A DNA stretch of 11,441 nucleotides. Source: a virus. Both the position numbers and the translations under genes were made by a program. Below the pieces are notes generated by a model that searched no databases, was not told where the DNA came from, and saw only the letters and a list, made by a program, of their open reading frames with translations. The number at the start of each line of letters is the position of its first letter. Position 1 is the stretch's first letter. This document shows positions 8,439 to 11,354 of this stretch, one piece after another. The DNA lies in the UHGV virus genome UHGV-0368337, one strand, 5' to 3'.

Positions 8439-8499
8439 TGCTGCGGGTGCTTGAGGCTGTCTGCCTCGGGCATGCCACCGTAAGGCAGACAGAGAAAAG

Positions 8500-8565
8500 C
8501 CCCAGTTAACATTACGCGTCCTGCAAGACGCCTAACATTAATCTGAGGCCAATTTCATGCTAGAC
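8500..8565 (-). ncRNA. candidate Sok-like antisense RNA (hypothetical)
   Basis: Minus-strand promoter-like TTGCCT (rc of 8595..8600), 17 nt, TAACCT (rc of 8572..8577). The transcript would be antisense to the SD and start of the upstream in-frame ORF at 8557 and contain hairpin 8515..8530. No clean U-tract terminator. Confidence 0.25.
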
Positions 8566-8613
8566 ACATGTAGGTTAGCCTCTTACGCGCCGAAAGGCAA
8601 GGAGAAGCAGGCT

Positions 8614-8769
8614 ATGAAGCAGCAAAAGGCGATGTTAGTCGCCCTGATCGTCATCTGTATTACCGTCATTGTGACGGCACTGGTAACGAGGAAAGACCTC
8701 TGCGAGGTACGAATCCGAACCGGCCAGACGGAGGTCACTGTCTTCACAGCTTACGAACCTGAGGAGTAA
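8614..8769 (+). CDS. hok: Hok/Gef-family type I toxin (51 aa membrane peptide)
   Basis: MKQQKAMLVALIVICITVIVTALVTRKDLCEVRIRTGQTEVTVFTAYEPEE shows the Hok/Gef signature (TM helix, TRK-LCE-R-G-EVA-F-AYE). AAGGCAAGGAGAAG RBS. ORF track 8557..8769 includes an in-frame upstream start with its own GAGG. Confidence 0.85.
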   Translation: MKQQKAMLVALIVICITVIVTALVTRKDLCEVRIRTGQTEVTVFTAYEPEE

Positions 8770-8837
8770 GAGACCAGGCGAGGGAGAAATCCCTCGCCAC
8801 CTCTGATGTGTCAGGCATCCTCAACGCACCCGCACTT

Positions 8838-8859
8838 AACCCGCTTCGGCGGGTTTTTT
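8838..8859 (+). terminator. rho-independent terminator of the hok transcript
   Basis: AACCCGC-TTCG-GCGGGTT followed by TTTT, preceded by the strong 3-prime hairpin GGCGAGGGA-GAAA-TCCCTCGCC (8777..8798). Confidence 0.75.
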
Positions 8860-8978
8860 CACGTACTGTGGTTGTGAATACGATCGGTATTAGGCTATGC
8901 TAACAACATTAGCCTGACTAATTTTGTATTGACTTGATTTTTGTTAAAGAACAGGACGGAGAAGTAAGGGTACACCCA

Positions 8979-9245
8979 ATGAGCTACGCACTAAAAAAAC
9001 ACCCGCGATTGACTATTCCCCCTCGCGATAAAAGCGTTGTGGCAGCTCCGCGCCCGGCTATCGATGAAAATTGCACTCATCGTGAGCAGGTGAAAAATGC
9101 TTTCGATTTCGGTTTTCTCGTTACGAGAAGGCAATGGAAGAACTTTCAAAAGTGTAATGATGGGTATTGTGCTCTATGGCTGAGATTGTTGAAGGAGTGC
9201 ACTACCTTTCGTTTGATGATCTTACCGAAATTAATCGCCTTTTAA
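8979..9245 (+). CDS. hypothetical protein (88 aa) upstream of and overlapping the doc-like gene; possible non-canonical antitoxin or spurious ORF
   Basis: ORF track 8934..9245; candidate start ATG at 8979 with a purine-rich GGAGAAGTAAGGG upstream. Overlaps the Doc-like ORF by 70 nt in another frame. No Phd/YefM-like or other recognisable signature. Confidence 0.3.
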   Translation: MSYALKKHPRLTIPPRDKSVVAAPRPAIDENCTHREQVKNAFDFGFLVTRRQWKNFQKCNDGYCALWLRLLKECTTFRLMILPKLIAF

Positions 9246-9661
9246 TTGAGCTTCAAACACCAGATGAACCTGTTAGTGTGCTGAGTGTTGATAATTTAAG
9301 TTCTTCTCAGTCTCGTCCCAGCATGGTTCGATGGTATGAACAGACTAATGACATGTTTGTACTGGCATCAGTATTGATTGAAAGTCTGATTCAGAATCAT
9401 CCATTTGCTAATGCAAACAAACGAACAGCTATGATGGCTGGTTATGTCTTCTTGTTGTTGAATGGCTATGAGTTAACAGCACCAGGCGATGAAATCGTGG
9501 AAATGGCAGAGGGACTGGCCTGCAAAACCTATACTCGAGAAGATCTCGAGAACTGGTTGTGTTATTGGTCTCGTGCGTATGACGGCCGGGAATTATGTAA
9601 AACAGGCGCAACTGTTGTTTTGTATGAAACTATCAAGCTTAAAATAGAACAGCAAAACTAA
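9176..9661 (+). CDS. doc: Doc-family (Fic-fold) toxin
   Basis: ORF track 9167..9661 (TTG); first ATG at 9176. Contains HPFANANKRTAMMAGYVFLLLNGY, matching the Doc signature HxFx(D/N)(A/G)NKR rather than the canonical Fic motif. Size is that of stand-alone Doc proteins. Confidence 0.8.
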   Translation: MAEIVEGVHYLSFDDLTEINRLLIELQTPDEPVSVLSVDNLSSSQSRPSMVRWYEQTNDMFVLASVLIESLIQNHPFANANKRTAMMAGYVFLLLNGYELTAPGDEIVEMAEGLACKTYTREDLENWLCYWSRAYDGRELCKTGATVVLYETIKLKIEQQN

Positions 9662-9675
9662 AGGTGCTTCTAATG

Positions 9676-9697
9676 AAAACCCGCTTCGGCGGGTTTT
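9676..9697. terminator. bidirectional rho-independent terminator between doc-like and higA-like genes
   Basis: AAAA-CCCGC-TTCG-GCGGG-TTTT, A-tract on one side and T-tract on the other, between convergent genes. The stem is identical to the hok terminator at 8838..8859. Confidence 0.7.
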
Positions 9698-9711
9698 GTT
9701 GTATTGGAGTA

Positions 9712-10029
9712 TCATGATATTACCTGGATTCCGTTTTTCTCTACGACTGAAAGAAGGCGAAGAGCGGCACCTCCCGGCCGTTTTACACCACGTTCCCAGT
9801 CTGATATCAGGTTTTTACTGACGTTGAGGTATCTGGCAAAAACAGGTTGAGACAGATGCTCTCGTTCGCGCAGTGCACGGATCCTTTCCGGAGACATTAC
9901 CGGCGCTGGCTGGAGACAAGTTTCATCGAATTCTCGCATAGTCTGTTTCGTTACTGCGCCGATATCATGAAGCGATTCCATCATTTCATGTACGGATGCA
10001 AGCGCATCACTGCGGTAATTTTTACTCAT
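9712..10029 (-). CDS. HigA-like HTH (XRE-family) antitoxin
   Basis: 105 aa; GGAGG 7 nt upstream of the ATG at 10029. C-terminal HTH LSQPVFARYLNVSKNLISDWERG. Directly downstream of the RelE/HigB-like toxin reading frame on the same strand, i.e. toxin-first order. Confidence 0.75.
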   Translation of the reverse strand: MSKNYRSDALASVHEMMESLHDIGAVTKQTMREFDETCLQPAPVMSPERIRALREREHLSQPVFARYLNVSKNLISDWERGVKRPGGAALRLLSVVEKNGIQVIS

Positions 10030-10083
10030 TGGGTACCTCCGTAAACTGACCCTGTAGAATCAGTTGTGCCAGTTGTTCATCTG

Positions 10084-10391
10084 TTAGATTGAGTACGTGA
10101 GGAGCCCCTTCCGAAATGCACTTTCCTCAGTAGCGGTTATATTTTCACGTTCATTTTTTGCGTATGCATATACGAAAAAGGCCCTTGTGCCGACGCGATA
10201 GAAAATGATTGTGCGATAACCGCCAGATTTGCCGCCACCGACTCGTGGCAGACGTTGCTTGATAACGCCGTTACCCAGGTTTGCTGAGATAAGCCCGTTA
10301 TCAGCCTGTTTAACAATTTCGCGCAGTGATTGGTCGGATATTTTGTTTTGCGTGCAAGTCGCTCAAACCAGGCGTTTTTAAAAATGCGCAT
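10084..10391 (-). pseudogene. RelE/HigB-like type II toxin gene interrupted by a -1 frameshift
   Basis: N-terminus MRIFKNAWFERLARKTK from the ATG at 10391. The rest, including the hallmark GGGKSGGYRTIIFYR, is in the -1 frame (...ISDQSLREIVKQADNGLISANLGNGVIKQRLPRVGGGKSGGYRTIIFYRVG...TYSI, stop 10086..10084). Adding one base to the homopolymer at 10341..10344 restores a 102-aa ORF. Confidence 0.6.
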
Positions 10392-10458
10392 TTTTTGTTC
10401 CGTTATTAATGTATAACACATAGTGTTACATTGCGTAGGGATCTGCAATGCCATCAGT

Positions 10459-10488
10459 TTGACAACGTCGCGTGTTCGGGGCTATATT
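10459..10488 (+). promoter_or_regulatory. near-consensus sigma-70 promoter (TTGACA, 18 nt, TATATT)
   Basis: TTGACA at 10459..10464 and TATATT at 10483..10488. Divergent from the higB-like start; faces the structured region and the ORF6N-like gene. Confidence 0.5.
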
Positions 10489-10494
10489 CCTCAC

Positions 10495-10569
10495 GCGCCA
10501 GCAAAACCTGGCGTCGGGATTAGCACCCCGGATATCGAAACGGTGCATAACCGCGCTGGCGGTTTTTTT
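10495..10569 (+). ncRNA. candidate small RNA or transcriptional attenuator (about 75 nt)
   Basis: Starts about 7 nt after the promoter -10. Hairpins CGCCAG-CAAAAC-CTGGCG and GCACC...GGTGC, then terminator-like CCGC-GCTG-GCGG plus T7 (10551..10569). About 165 nt of further structured sequence precedes the next gene. Confidence 0.3.
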
Positions 10570-10733
10570 ATGCGCTAAGCACAGTCACATTCGCGATTTA
10601 TGGCGGGCTGTGTGGGGGAGCCGAAAGGCTCGCCGGATGTTTCGACCGGTAGTGCTAACCCCGCACAGTTCGCCACCACGATGATTAGCACCTGACGGTG
10701 GCGAGGTAAAAATTATCGAAACGCGAGGTCATT

Positions 10734-11354
10734 ATGGCTGTTCAAATTTCTGTCGAAAACCTTTCCCCTGTTACCTATAACCAGATCCCCGTAATTACTA
10801 CTGAACTGTTGGCTCACCTTTACGGAACAAAAATCAAAAACATTTCTGATAACTTTCTGAACAACACGACGCGATTCATGCCCGGAAAGCATTACTTTAA
10901 AATTGAAAAAAACGAATTACGCGAGTTTAAGAACAGACCCGAAACAATCGGGTTAGTTGGTAAAAATGCCCGCTCCCTCATCCTCTGGACAGAACGCGGC
11001 GCAGCCCGTCACGCAAAAATGCTCGAAACCGATCGGGCGTGGGAGGTATTCGAAAAACTGGAAGACTGCTATTTCAGCCAGGGAAAAACAGCACCAACCG
11101 AACAGCAGCCGCAGATTCAGCCACAATTCACAGCCGAAGAAATCATCCTCCTTTGCTACATGCAGCTCTGGATGGAAAAAGCCCAGGACATCAGCAAACA
11201 CCTGTATCCCATTATGAAAGAGCTGAACTCCTCATACACGAACAAGCTGTATGACATTGCGTTTGAGACCATCTACATGGTGACGAAGAACAGAGACGCG
11301 CTACTAAGGAAGGTGCGAATAAGCAGGTCATTTCTTCCCAAGCTGACTCGCTGA
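10734..11354 (+). CDS. ORF6N/KilA-N-like DNA-binding domain protein (phage regulatory or antirepressor-like)
   Basis: 206 aa; GAGG 6 nt upstream. N-terminal region (VTYNQIPVITTELLAHLYG...LILWTERGAARHAKMLETDRAWEVFEKLEDCYF) resembles ORF6N/KilA-N-type phage domains; C-terminal half is Gln/Pro-linked and unassigned. Confidence 0.7.
   Translation: MAVQISVENLSPVTYNQIPVITTELLAHLYGTKIKNISDNFLNNTTRFMPGKHYFKIEKNELREFKNRPETIGLVGKNARSLILWTERGAARHAKMLETDRAWEVFEKLEDCYFSQGKTAPTEQQPQIQPQFTAEEIILLCYMQLWMEKAQDISKHLYPIMKELNSSYTNKLYDIAFETIYMVTKNRDALLRKVRISRSFLPKLTR

What the first reader, a model, noticed from the sequence alone, without database searches (positions are those of the whole stretch)
8979..9661. 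Doc-family toxin without a recognisable Phd-type antitoxin; upstream ORF overlaps it by 70 nt
The Doc signature HPFANANKRTA is clear, but the only upstream candidate partner (88 aa, 8979..9245) has no Phd/YefM-like features and overlaps the toxin by 70 nt in another frame, far more than usual 1-4 nt coupling. Options: a novel antitoxin with overlap-dependent coupling, a single longer Doc protein split by a frameshift, or an orphan Doc. An inverted repeat GCTAA-CAACA-TTAGC at about 8899..8913 could be an autoregulatory operator.
Basis: partly seen in the sequence, partly recalled or inferred. Interest (0 to 1): 0.6.

Follow-up and report, generated by a model that had tools for sequence, protein, structure and literature searches.

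The report
Frameshifted small antitoxin beside Doc toxin
The odd 70-base overlap comes from one missing T in this copy of a small prophage gene, which in its intact 59-residue form always sits just upstream of this type of Doc toxin and is probably its unnamed, unusually minimal antitoxin.

Summary
The Doc gene (9176..9661) is real and intact. The 88-aa upstream ORF and its 70-nt overlap exist in the window but are not the native state. This sequence has T4 at 9113..9116, where every related E. coli genome checked has T5 (0 of 95 records lack the extra base). Restoring the T gives a 59-aa ORF that stops at TAA 9155..9157, 18 nt before the Doc ATG, with no overlap.

The 59-aa ORF is a real gene. 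It is under purifying selection (pN/pS about 0.1). A homologue of 55-60 aa lies directly upstream of Doc in 26 of 26 related loci across Gammaproteobacteria and in two Pseudomonas phages. In E. coli prophages the two genes form an 840-bp cassette bracketed by a perfect 20-nt direct repeat, and empty sites exist.

The protein has no Pfam or NCBIfam match and no Phd/YefM similarity. Its predicted C-terminal helix matches the shared C-terminal Doc-binding segment of AbrB-, RHH- and Phd-type Doc antitoxins (hhalign P = 2.3e-4, above all 150 shuffled controls).

Best reading: an ordinary type II Doc module with an unannotated minimal antitoxin, frameshifted here by mutation or sequencing error. The proposed operator repeat is not above chance.

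The parts
8838..8857 (+). Left copy of a perfect 20-nt direct repeat (AACCCGCTTCGGCGGGTTTT). It is the hokD terminator hairpin and marks the left boundary of the 840-bp cassette.
   Evidence: two 100% identical copies, 840 nt apart; 168 E. coli genomes have the empty site with a single copy
8858..8978 (+). Upstream non-coding region of the cassette, presumed to hold the promoter.
   Evidence: alignment of 4 upstream variants; repeat not above chance; no consensus sigma-70 site found on the + strand
8979..9157 (+). Small partner gene (putative antitoxin). The ancestral reading frame is 59 aa in relatives and ends at TAA 9155..9157. In this window the frame is broken at 9113..9116.
   Evidence: intact 59-aa ORF, pN/pS about 0.1; homologue upstream of Doc in 26/26 loci; PHROG 2208, E = 2.7e-42
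9113..9116 (+). T4 run where relatives have T5. This is the 1-nt deletion that shifts the frame after residue 46 (…FDFGF|) and replaces the last 13 conserved residues (SRYEKAMEELSKV).
   Evidence: the only indel in 6.9 kb against a 99.9% identical relative; no other E. coli record lacks the base
8979..9245 (+). The 88-aa ORF as it reads in this window: the frameshifted product (46 native residues plus 42 out-of-frame residues), overlapping Doc by 70 nt.
   Evidence: (this exact product is not in the protein collection)
9176..9661 (+). Doc-family toxin gene, 161 aa, intact. Its product is identical to a protein seen on 339 contigs.
   Evidence: (pN/pS about 0.15-0.2)
9398..9430 (+). Doc catalytic motif HPFANANKRTA, which fits HxFx(D/N)(A/G)NKR.
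   Evidence: sequence; aligned to the motif of solved Doc chains; H, F, N, N, K, R, T, A invariant in 19 relatives
9676..9697 (+). Terminator-like hairpin after Doc. It contains the right copy of the 20-nt direct repeat (9678..9697) and marks the right boundary of the cassette.

Best explanation
The locus is a two-gene type II toxin-antitoxin cassette carried as a moron in a lambdoid prophage. It consists of a 59-aa protein gene followed by a Doc-family toxin gene.

In its native form the small gene ends at tandem stop codons 18 nt before the Doc start. There is no overlap. In this window one T of a T5 run is missing (9113..9116), either by genuine mutation or by homopolymer sequencing error. 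That shifts the small gene's frame after residue 46 and extends it to 88 aa, across the Doc start.

Inferred mechanism: Doc would phosphorylate EF-Tu and stop translation, as P1 Doc does. The small protein would neutralise it by laying its C-terminal amphipathic helix (residues about 34-57) into the Doc groove, as the C-terminal segment of Phd and of AbrB/RHH-type Doc antitoxins does. The N-terminal 33 residues (Pro-rich, conserved RLxIPPRDK) replace the usual DNA-binding domain, and their role is unknown.

The frameshift removes the last 13 residues of the helix. If it is real, this copy's antitoxin is probably non-functional.

Shown: the deletion, the conservation, the synteny, the cassette boundaries and the motif similarity. 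Inferred: binding, neutralisation and toxicity.
For: - Deletion: the alignment shows T4 against T5. It is the only indel in 6.9 kb against a 99.9% identical relative. 0 of 95 records lack the base, and all 60 of 122 sampled records are one base longer. The 88-aa product is unknown elsewhere, while the 59-aa product is on at least 1000 contigs.
- Real gene: pS is 0.36-0.42 against pN 0.02-0.05 between E. coli variants, and the last 26 residues are invariant.
- Obligate partner: a 55-60 aa homologue ends 0-10 nt before Doc in 26/26 loci with 45-77% Doc identity, from Enterobacterales, Pseudomonas, Halomonadaceae, Gilliamella and others. The same pair sits next to the integrase in Pseudomonas phages Sirocco and LPPA56.
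- Self-contained unit: the pair occurs in prophages with different flanks. The cassette is bracketed by a perfect 20-nt direct repeat, and 168 genomes have the empty site.
- Doc identity: PF02661 and TIGR01550 match above their cutoffs and the Doc-type NKR motif is present.
- Antitoxin-like anatomy: AF2 gives a disordered N-terminus and one helix at 34-57.
- Doc-binding segment: the family profile aligns with the shared C-terminal segment of AbrB-, RHH- and Phd-type Doc antitoxins at hhalign P = 2.3e-4, over 22 columns flush with both C-termini. The real score of 18.8 compares with a maximum of 12.9 in 150 column-shuffled controls and 10.6 for the reversed control.
- Literature: the C-terminal helix alone of Phd neutralises Doc (PMC9207808). 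The E. faecalis antitoxin has no sequence similarity to P1 Phd yet binds Doc with a bent C-terminal helix (PMC13034048). Neutralisation-only antitoxins are recognised (PMC10440598).
Against: - No direct evidence of binding, neutralisation or Doc toxicity.
- The Doc model was too poor to use (pLDDT 53).
- The motif similarity is short (22 columns, hhalign probability 44%).
- The small protein has no detectable DNA-binding domain, so the usual autoregulation is unexplained.
- No consensus promoter was found upstream in the window.
- A few remote family members are not followed by Doc, so the family may have another role.
- If the frameshift is real, an intact Doc beside a crippled antitoxin needs an explanation.
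Confidence: 0.75

Rival explanations
1. The 88-aa overlapping ORF is the native gene. The 70-nt overlap provides translational coupling between a novel antitoxin and Doc.
For: The ORF and the overlap are present in the window.
Against: No other genome has this frame. The 88-aa product is not in 15 billion proteins. The out-of-frame tail replaces the most conserved residues of the family. All relatives have non-overlapping genes.
Confidence: 0.02
2. The small conserved protein is not an antitoxin. It would be some other phage factor (regulator, adaptor, or a protein with its own target) that merely travels with Doc. Doc would then be neutralised otherwise, or not be toxic.
For: No known antitoxin or DNA-binding domain is detected. 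Remote homologues occur without a Doc gene downstream in phage-like contigs. Neutralisation is untested.
Against: The position immediately upstream of Doc is strictly conserved, 26/26. The two genes are gained or lost as one cassette. The C-terminal segment matches that of established Doc antitoxin types. The neighbouring HTH/RelE pair is absent from other prophages that carry the cassette, so it cannot be the partner.
Confidence: 0.15
3. The missing T is a homopolymer sequencing or assembly error, and the strain really carries the intact 59-aa gene. This is a sub-question of the best explanation; the alternative is a genuine inactivating mutation.
For: It is a single-base change in a T5 run. 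Doc is intact and identical to functional-looking copies. An unneutralised toxin should be counter-selected. The allele has never been seen elsewhere.
Against: It is the only indel in 6.9 kb against a 99.9% identical relative, so the assembly is not generally indel-prone. Frameshifts in this gene do occur elsewhere: Yersinia-type P0147/P0204, on 2 contigs. Some genomes carry 2-3 copies that could supply antitoxin in trans. Ribosomes reading through the Doc start might lower Doc expression (inference).
Confidence: 0.5
4. The T run acts as a switch. Either slippage makes the antitoxin phase-variable, or a -1 ribosomal slip on G GUU UUC restores the native frame and yields some full-length antitoxin.
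For: A -1 shift of tRNA-Phe on the U4 run would re-pair perfectly and regenerate the exact native sequence (read directly from 9110..9119).
Against: Only this one sequence among more than 120 has T4. No stimulatory element was identified. T4/T5 runs are too short for efficient slippage (established knowledge).
Confidence: 0.03
5. The two ORFs are halves of one longer Doc protein split by a frameshift, or Doc is an orphan without a partner.
For: In intact relatives the two ORFs happen to be in the same frame.
Against: They are separated by tandem stops (TAA TGA or TAA TAA) in all E. coli variants. In other genera they lie in varying frames with gaps of 0-10 nt. Doc profiles start at residue 10-11 of the 161-aa ORF. 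No fused homologue appeared among 261 Doc relatives of 134-180 aa.
Confidence: 0.01

Closest known systems
Phd-Doc of bacteriophage P1 (type II TA; PDB 3K33, 3DD7)
   Same: Phage-borne two-gene operon with a small antitoxin upstream. The toxin carries the Doc motif HxFx(D/N)(A/G)NKR and is recognisably related by sequence (E = 1.2e-4). The antitoxin's neutralising part is a C-terminal helix.
   Different: The partner here has no Phd/YefM domain and no detectable similarity to full-length P1 Phd. It is 59 aa rather than 73 aa. It has no predicted folded N-terminal DNA-binding domain. Doc is 161 aa rather than 126 aa, with a conserved WLxxWSRxYDxRxLC segment near the C-terminus.
Enterococcus faecalis EFPhd-EFDoc (PDB 9VZC; PMC13034048), and the AbrB/MazE- or RHH-type Doc antitoxins found here upstream of distant Doc genes
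   Same: 9VZC is the closest solved Doc by sequence (E = 1.1e-12). Per PMC13034048, EFPhd has no sequence similarity to P1 Phd yet binds Doc through a bent C-terminal helix. The uncharacterised AbrB/MazE- and RHH-type upstream ORFs found here (L034-L056) end in the motif D..F..A...V..KN...L..LA, which the 59-aa family matches.
   Different: Those antitoxins carry a beta-sheet or ribbon-helix-helix DNA-binding domain (PMC13034048). The 59-aa family has only a Pro-rich 33-residue N-terminus with the motif RLxIPPRDK.
Phd-C neutralisation element and neutralisation-only antitoxins (NetFlax study, PMC10440598)
   Same: The concept fits. A short linear Doc-binding element is sufficient for neutralisation when stabilised, and single-domain antitoxins made only of the neutralising element exist.
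   Different: The family here is not named or described in that paper's main text. I did not find it under any accession searched.
Class I Fic antitoxins (VbhA/VbhT, FicA/FicT)
   Same: An antitoxin of about 60 aa, mostly a single helix, upstream of a Fic-fold toxin.
   Different: The inhibitory motif (S/T)xxxE(G/N) is absent from the 59-aa sequence. The toxin has the Doc-type NKR motif, not the AMPylase GNGR motif.

Membership tests
Fic/Doc superfamily, Doc subfamily (PF02661; TIGR01550 DOC_P1) | Profile match above the curated cutoffs | tested here: met
   PF02661 44.4 bits against 24. TIGR01550 122.1 bits against 38.65, covering profile positions 2-122 of 122. PHROG 577 'Doc-like toxin', E = 1e-50.
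Fic/Doc superfamily, Doc subfamily (PF02661; TIGR01550 DOC_P1) | Doc-type active-site motif HxFx(D/N)(A/G)NKR (kinase type, not the GNGR AMPylase type) | tested here: met
   HPFANANKR at residues 75-83, nt 9398..9424. It aligns to the motif of solved Doc chains. The motif residues are invariant in 19 relatives.
Fic/Doc superfamily, Doc subfamily (PF02661; TIGR01550 DOC_P1) | Fic fold | tested here: inconclusive
   The AF2 model had mean pLDDT 53.3, too poor for a fold search. Sequence similarity to solved Doc structures 9VZC and 3K33 supports the fold indirectly.
Fic/Doc superfamily, Doc subfamily (PF02661; TIGR01550 DOC_P1) | Phosphorylates EF-Tu Thr382 and arrests growth | not testable with these tools
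   Needs a toxicity assay and an EF-Tu phosphorylation assay.
Type II toxin-antitoxin module | Small co-oriented gene immediately adjacent to the toxin gene, conserved as a pair | tested here: met
   18-nt gap in intact E. coli copies. 26/26 related loci with gaps of 0-10 nt. Two Pseudomonas phages carry the pair.
Type II toxin-antitoxin module | The two genes behave as one mobile unit | tested here: met
   The pair is found in prophages with different flanks. The 840-bp cassette lies between perfect 20-nt direct repeats. An empty site exists in 168 genomes.
Type II toxin-antitoxin module | Antitoxin protein binds and neutralises the toxin | not testable with these tools
The only evidence is indirect: the C-terminal helix matches the Doc-binding segment of other Doc antitoxins at P = 2.3e-4, above 150/150 shuffles.
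Type II toxin-antitoxin module | Antitoxin carries a DNA-binding domain and autoregulates through an operator | tested here: inconclusive
   No DNA-binding domain was detected. Upstream inverted repeats are strong in some genera, for example 9-bp arms inside a consensus promoter in Providencia. They are not above chance in the window. A 15-nt island is conserved among E. coli variants.
Phd/YefM antitoxin family (PF02604) | Phd/YefM N-terminal domain detectable by profile | tested here: not met
   No Pfam or NCBIfam hit even at E = 10. hhalign against P1 Phd gave 5 aligned columns and probability 0.2%. A profile search of 1.84 billion representatives found only 37 proteins of 38-95 aa, plus 2 large multi-stretch proteins (1274 and 2917 aa) I took as spurious hits.
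Class I Fic antitoxins (VbhA/FicA type) | Inhibitory helix motif (S/T)xxxE(G/N) | tested here: not met
   Direct inspection of the 59-aa sequence and the family alignments. No Glu followed by Gly/Asn has Ser/Thr four residues before it.

The most novel reading that the evidence does not exclude
The 59-aa protein defines a distinct minimal class of Doc antitoxin. A Phd-C-like helix is joined not to a DNA-binding domain but to a conserved Pro-rich motif (RLxIPPRDK). That motif would have its own function: a second contact with the subfamily-specific C-terminal segment of Doc, a pseudo-substrate-like plug, or a strand that binds DNA only when assembled on Doc. Solo copies in phage-like contigs would act as anti-Doc counter-defence genes.
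Probability: 0.2. Interest if true: 0.55.

Novelty: new variant of a known kind. Interest (0 to 1): 0.35.

Why it matters
The feature that made the finding look strange, a 70-nt out-of-frame overlap, is explained by a single missing base. It needs no new biology.

What remains is modest but useful. A widespread Doc subfamily in Gammaproteobacteria and their temperate phages is paired with a 55-60 aa protein that databases call 'hypothetical'. It has no Pfam or NCBIfam model and is often not even called as a gene. As a result these Doc genes look like orphans or mispaired toxins in automated annotation.

Recognising the family would correct TA inventories for E. coli (including O104:H4 and O157:H7 prophages), Salmonella, Yersinia, Providencia and Pseudomonas phages. 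It also offers a natural example of a Doc antitoxin reduced to the neutralising helix plus a short conserved motif. That is relevant to how TA modules are regulated without a DNA-binding antitoxin, and to peptide-based Doc inhibitors.

Tried and rejected
- Pfam, NCBIfam and PADLOC scans of the 59-aa protein found nothing. PHROGs gave only an unknown-function family.
- A PDB profile search gave only chance-level hits, E of at least 0.2.
- hhalign against full-length P1 Phd found nothing.
- The AF2 model of Doc alone had pLDDT 53, so no fold search was run.
- A fold search of the single-helix antitoxin model was not run because it would be meaningless.
- The sigma-70 consensus scan found no + strand promoter upstream of the small gene.
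- A simple HMM-against-sequence test of the C-terminal motif was only weakly positive: real sequences ranked 8th, 57th, 224th and lower among about 6000. The profile-profile test with a more diverse family alignment was clearer.
- Literature searches by accession and by topic found no paper describing this partner family. The Salmonella 'Phd' studied in PMC9207808 is the canonical 73-aa type, not this family.
- I considered the downstream HTH/RelE-like pair as the real partner of Doc. I rejected it because other prophages carry the cassette without that pair.

Full report
**What is in the window.**
The region lies in a lambdoid prophage of E. coli. A 99.9% identical stretch in strain AST198 is flanked by kil, cII-like, replication, nin, Q and lysis genes.
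- Upstream is a hok/sok type I module: Rfam sok at 8445..8619 and a Hok ORF to 8769.
- Downstream on the minus strand is an intact HTH antitoxin-like gene (9712..10029) and a degraded RelE-like gene.
- Between them are the two ORFs of the finding: ATG 8979 to stop 9245 (88 aa) and ATG 9176 to stop 9661 (161 aa). They are in different frames and overlap by 70 nt.

**The toxin.**
The 161-aa ORF is a Doc.
- It matches PF02661 at 44.4 bits (cutoff 24) and TIGR01550 'DOC_P1' at 122 bits (cutoff 38.65) over the whole profile. It also matches PHROG 577 'Doc-like toxin'.
- HPFANANKR fits the Doc kinase motif HxFx(D/N)(A/G)NKR and aligns with it in solved Doc chains. The closest are E. faecalis Doc 9VZC (E = 1.1e-12) and P1 Doc 3K33 (E = 1.2e-4).
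- The motif residues are invariant among 19 relatives.
- The window's Doc protein is identical to one seen on 339 contigs. Doc is under purifying selection among E. coli variants, with pN/pS about 0.15-0.2.

**The overlap is a frameshift.**
Every one of the 20 best E. coli matches to 8780..9720 is one base longer than the window.
- The alignment places the difference in a T run: GGTTTTTCTC in relatives, GGTTTTCTC in the window (T4 at 9113..9116).
- It is the only indel in 6.9 kb against AST198.
- Of 122 complete genomes carrying the region, all 60 sampled evenly down the ranking have the extra base.
- A 71-nt probe across the run matched 95 records, none at 100%.
- With T5 the upstream ORF is 59 aa: MSYALKKHPRLTIPPRDKSVVAAPRPAIDENCTHREQVKNAFDFGFSRYEKAMEELSKV. 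It ends at TAA (window 9155..9157) followed by a second in-frame stop, 18 nt before the Doc ATG.
- That exact 59-aa protein is on at least 1000 contigs. The 88-aa product is absent from about 15 billion proteins.

So the 88-aa ORF and the 70-nt overlap are private to this sequence. I cannot tell from the window alone whether the missing T is a real mutation or a homopolymer error.

**The 59-aa ORF is a real gene and an obligate partner of this Doc subfamily.**
- Between E. coli variants that differ by about 12% in DNA, the ORF shows pS 0.36-0.42 against pN 0.02-0.05. Its last 26 residues are unchanged.
- A degenerate-pattern scan of one genome per species returned 50 Doc loci. In all 26 with 45-77% Doc identity, a 55-60 aa ORF of the same family ends 0-10 nt before Doc. 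These loci come from Serratia, Providencia, Yersinia, Citrobacter, Morganella, Xenorhabdus, Arsenophonus, Pseudomonas, Halomonas, Gilliamella, Ignatzschineria and others.
- The same pair sits beside the integrase in Pseudomonas phages Sirocco and LPPA56.
- In E. coli the pair occurs in prophages with different neighbours, with or without hokD upstream and without the HTH/RelE pair downstream.
- In the window the pair, with its upstream region and terminator, is an 840-bp unit lying between two perfect copies of a 20-nt hairpin sequence, at 8838..8857 and 9678..9697.
- A synthetic 'empty site' query, with hokD and one hairpin joined directly to the HTH gene, is matched end to end in 168 genomes, best 99.5%.

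The two genes are therefore gained or lost together.

**What the small protein is.**
- It has no Pfam, NCBIfam or PADLOC match. Its only named relative is PHROG 2208, of unknown function.
- A full HMMER profile search of 1.84 billion representatives found 39 hits. Of these, 37 are small proteins of 38-95 aa. The other two are large multi-stretch proteins (1274 and 2917 aa) that I took as spurious. Nothing links the family to a larger one.
- There is no similarity to full-length P1 Phd or to any PDB chain.
- AF2 predicts a non-globular N-terminus and a single helix at 34-57, with pLDDT about 80 in the helix.
- Across 35 diverse members the conserved features are I13-P14, R16(-D17), A41, Y49 and L56. 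These fall in an N-terminal motif h-IP-x-RD-K and a C-terminal helix QVxNAFxxGFxRYEKAxxxLSKV.

**Link to known Doc antitoxins.**
The more distant Doc loci from the same scan have upstream antitoxins with AbrB/MazE, RHH-like or Phd/YefM N-terminal domains. All of them end in a common segment, D..F..A...V..KN...L..LA. P1 Phd and Salmonella Phd have it too (PMC9207808).
- A profile of the 59-aa family aligns residues 36-57 to that segment, flush with both C-termini. hhalign gives P = 2.3e-4 and probability 44%.
- The score of 18.8 exceeded all 150 column-shuffled controls (maximum 12.9) and the reversed control (10.6).
- A cruder HMM-against-sequence test was only weakly positive.

In P1, Salmonella and E. 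faecalis this segment is the bent helix that binds Doc and suffices for neutralisation (PMC9207808, PMC13034048, PMC10440598). So I read the small protein as a Doc antitoxin reduced to the neutralising helix plus a short conserved N-terminal motif. This is inference.

**Consequence of the frameshift.**
The shift falls after F46. It replaces SRYEKAMEELSKV, the most conserved part of the helix, with 42 unrelated residues. By analogy with Phd, where either half of the helix alone loses almost all affinity (PMC9207808), the 88-aa product should neutralise poorly.

An intact Doc next to a crippled antitoxin would be expected to be harmful. That favours a sequencing error, supply of antitoxin from a second copy (some genomes have 2-3 copies), or reduced Doc translation because ribosomes now read across its start. 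All three are inferences. An independent frameshift of the Yersinia-type gene exists on two contigs.

**Regulation.**
It is matched or beaten by 63% of shuffles and is not conserved in other E. coli promoter variants.
- What is conserved among those variants is a 15-nt island, ATTAG(G/A)CTA(T/A)NCTAA at 8890..8904. Its function is unknown.
- No consensus sigma-70 promoter was found upstream in the window.
- In Providencia and Morganella, a consensus TTGACT-N17-TATAAT promoter carries a perfect 7-9 bp inverted repeat in its spacer. Best repeat arms across all loci average 6.5 nt, against about 5.1 in shuffles. Operator-type control is therefore plausible in the family, by a factor not identified.

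**Verdict.**
This is an ordinary type II Doc cassette whose partner gene is frameshifted in this one sequence. The partner belongs to an unannotated, narrowly distributed family of minimal Doc antitoxins. It is a new variant of a known kind and of moderate interest.

Noticed in passing
window 8838..8857 and 9678..9697: A perfect 20-nt direct repeat (AACCCGCTTCGGCGGGTTTT, a terminator hairpin) brackets the antitoxin-Doc cassette. 168 E. coli genomes have the corresponding empty site with hokD directly next to the HTH gene, so the cassette is an 840-bp indel, probably through recombination at the hairpin.
   Followed up: yes
window 10482..10680 (+): Rfam finds a P1/P7-type immunity element: c4-a1b1 targets (10482..10534), isrK (10495..10569) and C4 antisense RNA (10596..10680). 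It lies just upstream of an ORF6N-domain gene (10734..11354), which looks like an antisense-RNA-controlled antirepressor-like unit inside a lambdoid prophage.
   Followed up: no
window 9712..10454 (-): The HTH (MqsA/HigA-like) gene at 9712..10029 is intact. The upstream RelE-like ORF (10137..10454) matches only positions 1-34 of PF06296 and is annotated as a 68-80 aa fragment in relatives. This looks like a decayed toxin with a surviving antitoxin/regulator.
   Followed up: partly
window 8445..8769 (+): A complete hok/sok type I module (Rfam sok 116.9 bits; Hok PF01848) lies immediately upstream. Three toxin-antitoxin-like units of different types are stacked within 2 kb.
   Followed up: partly
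P0147 / P0204; compare L010 2311..2494: The Yersinia-type homologue of the small gene also occurs as a frameshifted 60-aa form (…QVKNALRLAFLAMKKQWKNFLRCK). The shift is in the same FxFGF-coding stretch, and the form is seen on two contigs.
   Followed up: partly
L058 1036..1194; L059 1501..1650; L060 1501..1653; L061 1099..1251: Remote members of the small-protein family sit in phage-like gene strings without a Doc gene downstream. Next genes include a 65-aa cut ORF (MKLIVCGGRDY…, which I guessed to be DUF2493-like but did not check) and a 261-aa protein with no Pfam hit. These could be solo antitoxins or counter-defence genes.
   Followed up: partly
L008, L012, L013 (Providencia/Morganella), about 60-95 nt upstream of the small gene: A consensus TTGACT-N17-TATAAT promoter has a perfect inverted repeat in the spacer (for example TAATGAAAG-ttag-CTTTCATTA). 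It looks like an operator although the small protein has no recognisable DNA-binding domain.
   Followed up: partly
window 8890..8904: ATTAG(G/A)CTA(T/A)NCTAA is the only island conserved among three otherwise diverged upstream regions of the cassette in E. coli. It is a quasi-palindrome, TTAG-N6-CTAA, and in the window it is repeated as TTAGCCTGACTAA at 8910..8922.
   Followed up: partly
Doc residues about 120-141 (window 9533..9598): This Doc subfamily has a conserved segment WLxxWSRxYDxRxLC near the C-terminus, mostly beyond the TIGR01550 profile match (which ends at residue 130). It co-occurs with the partner's RLxIPPRDK motif and is a candidate second interface.
   Followed up: no
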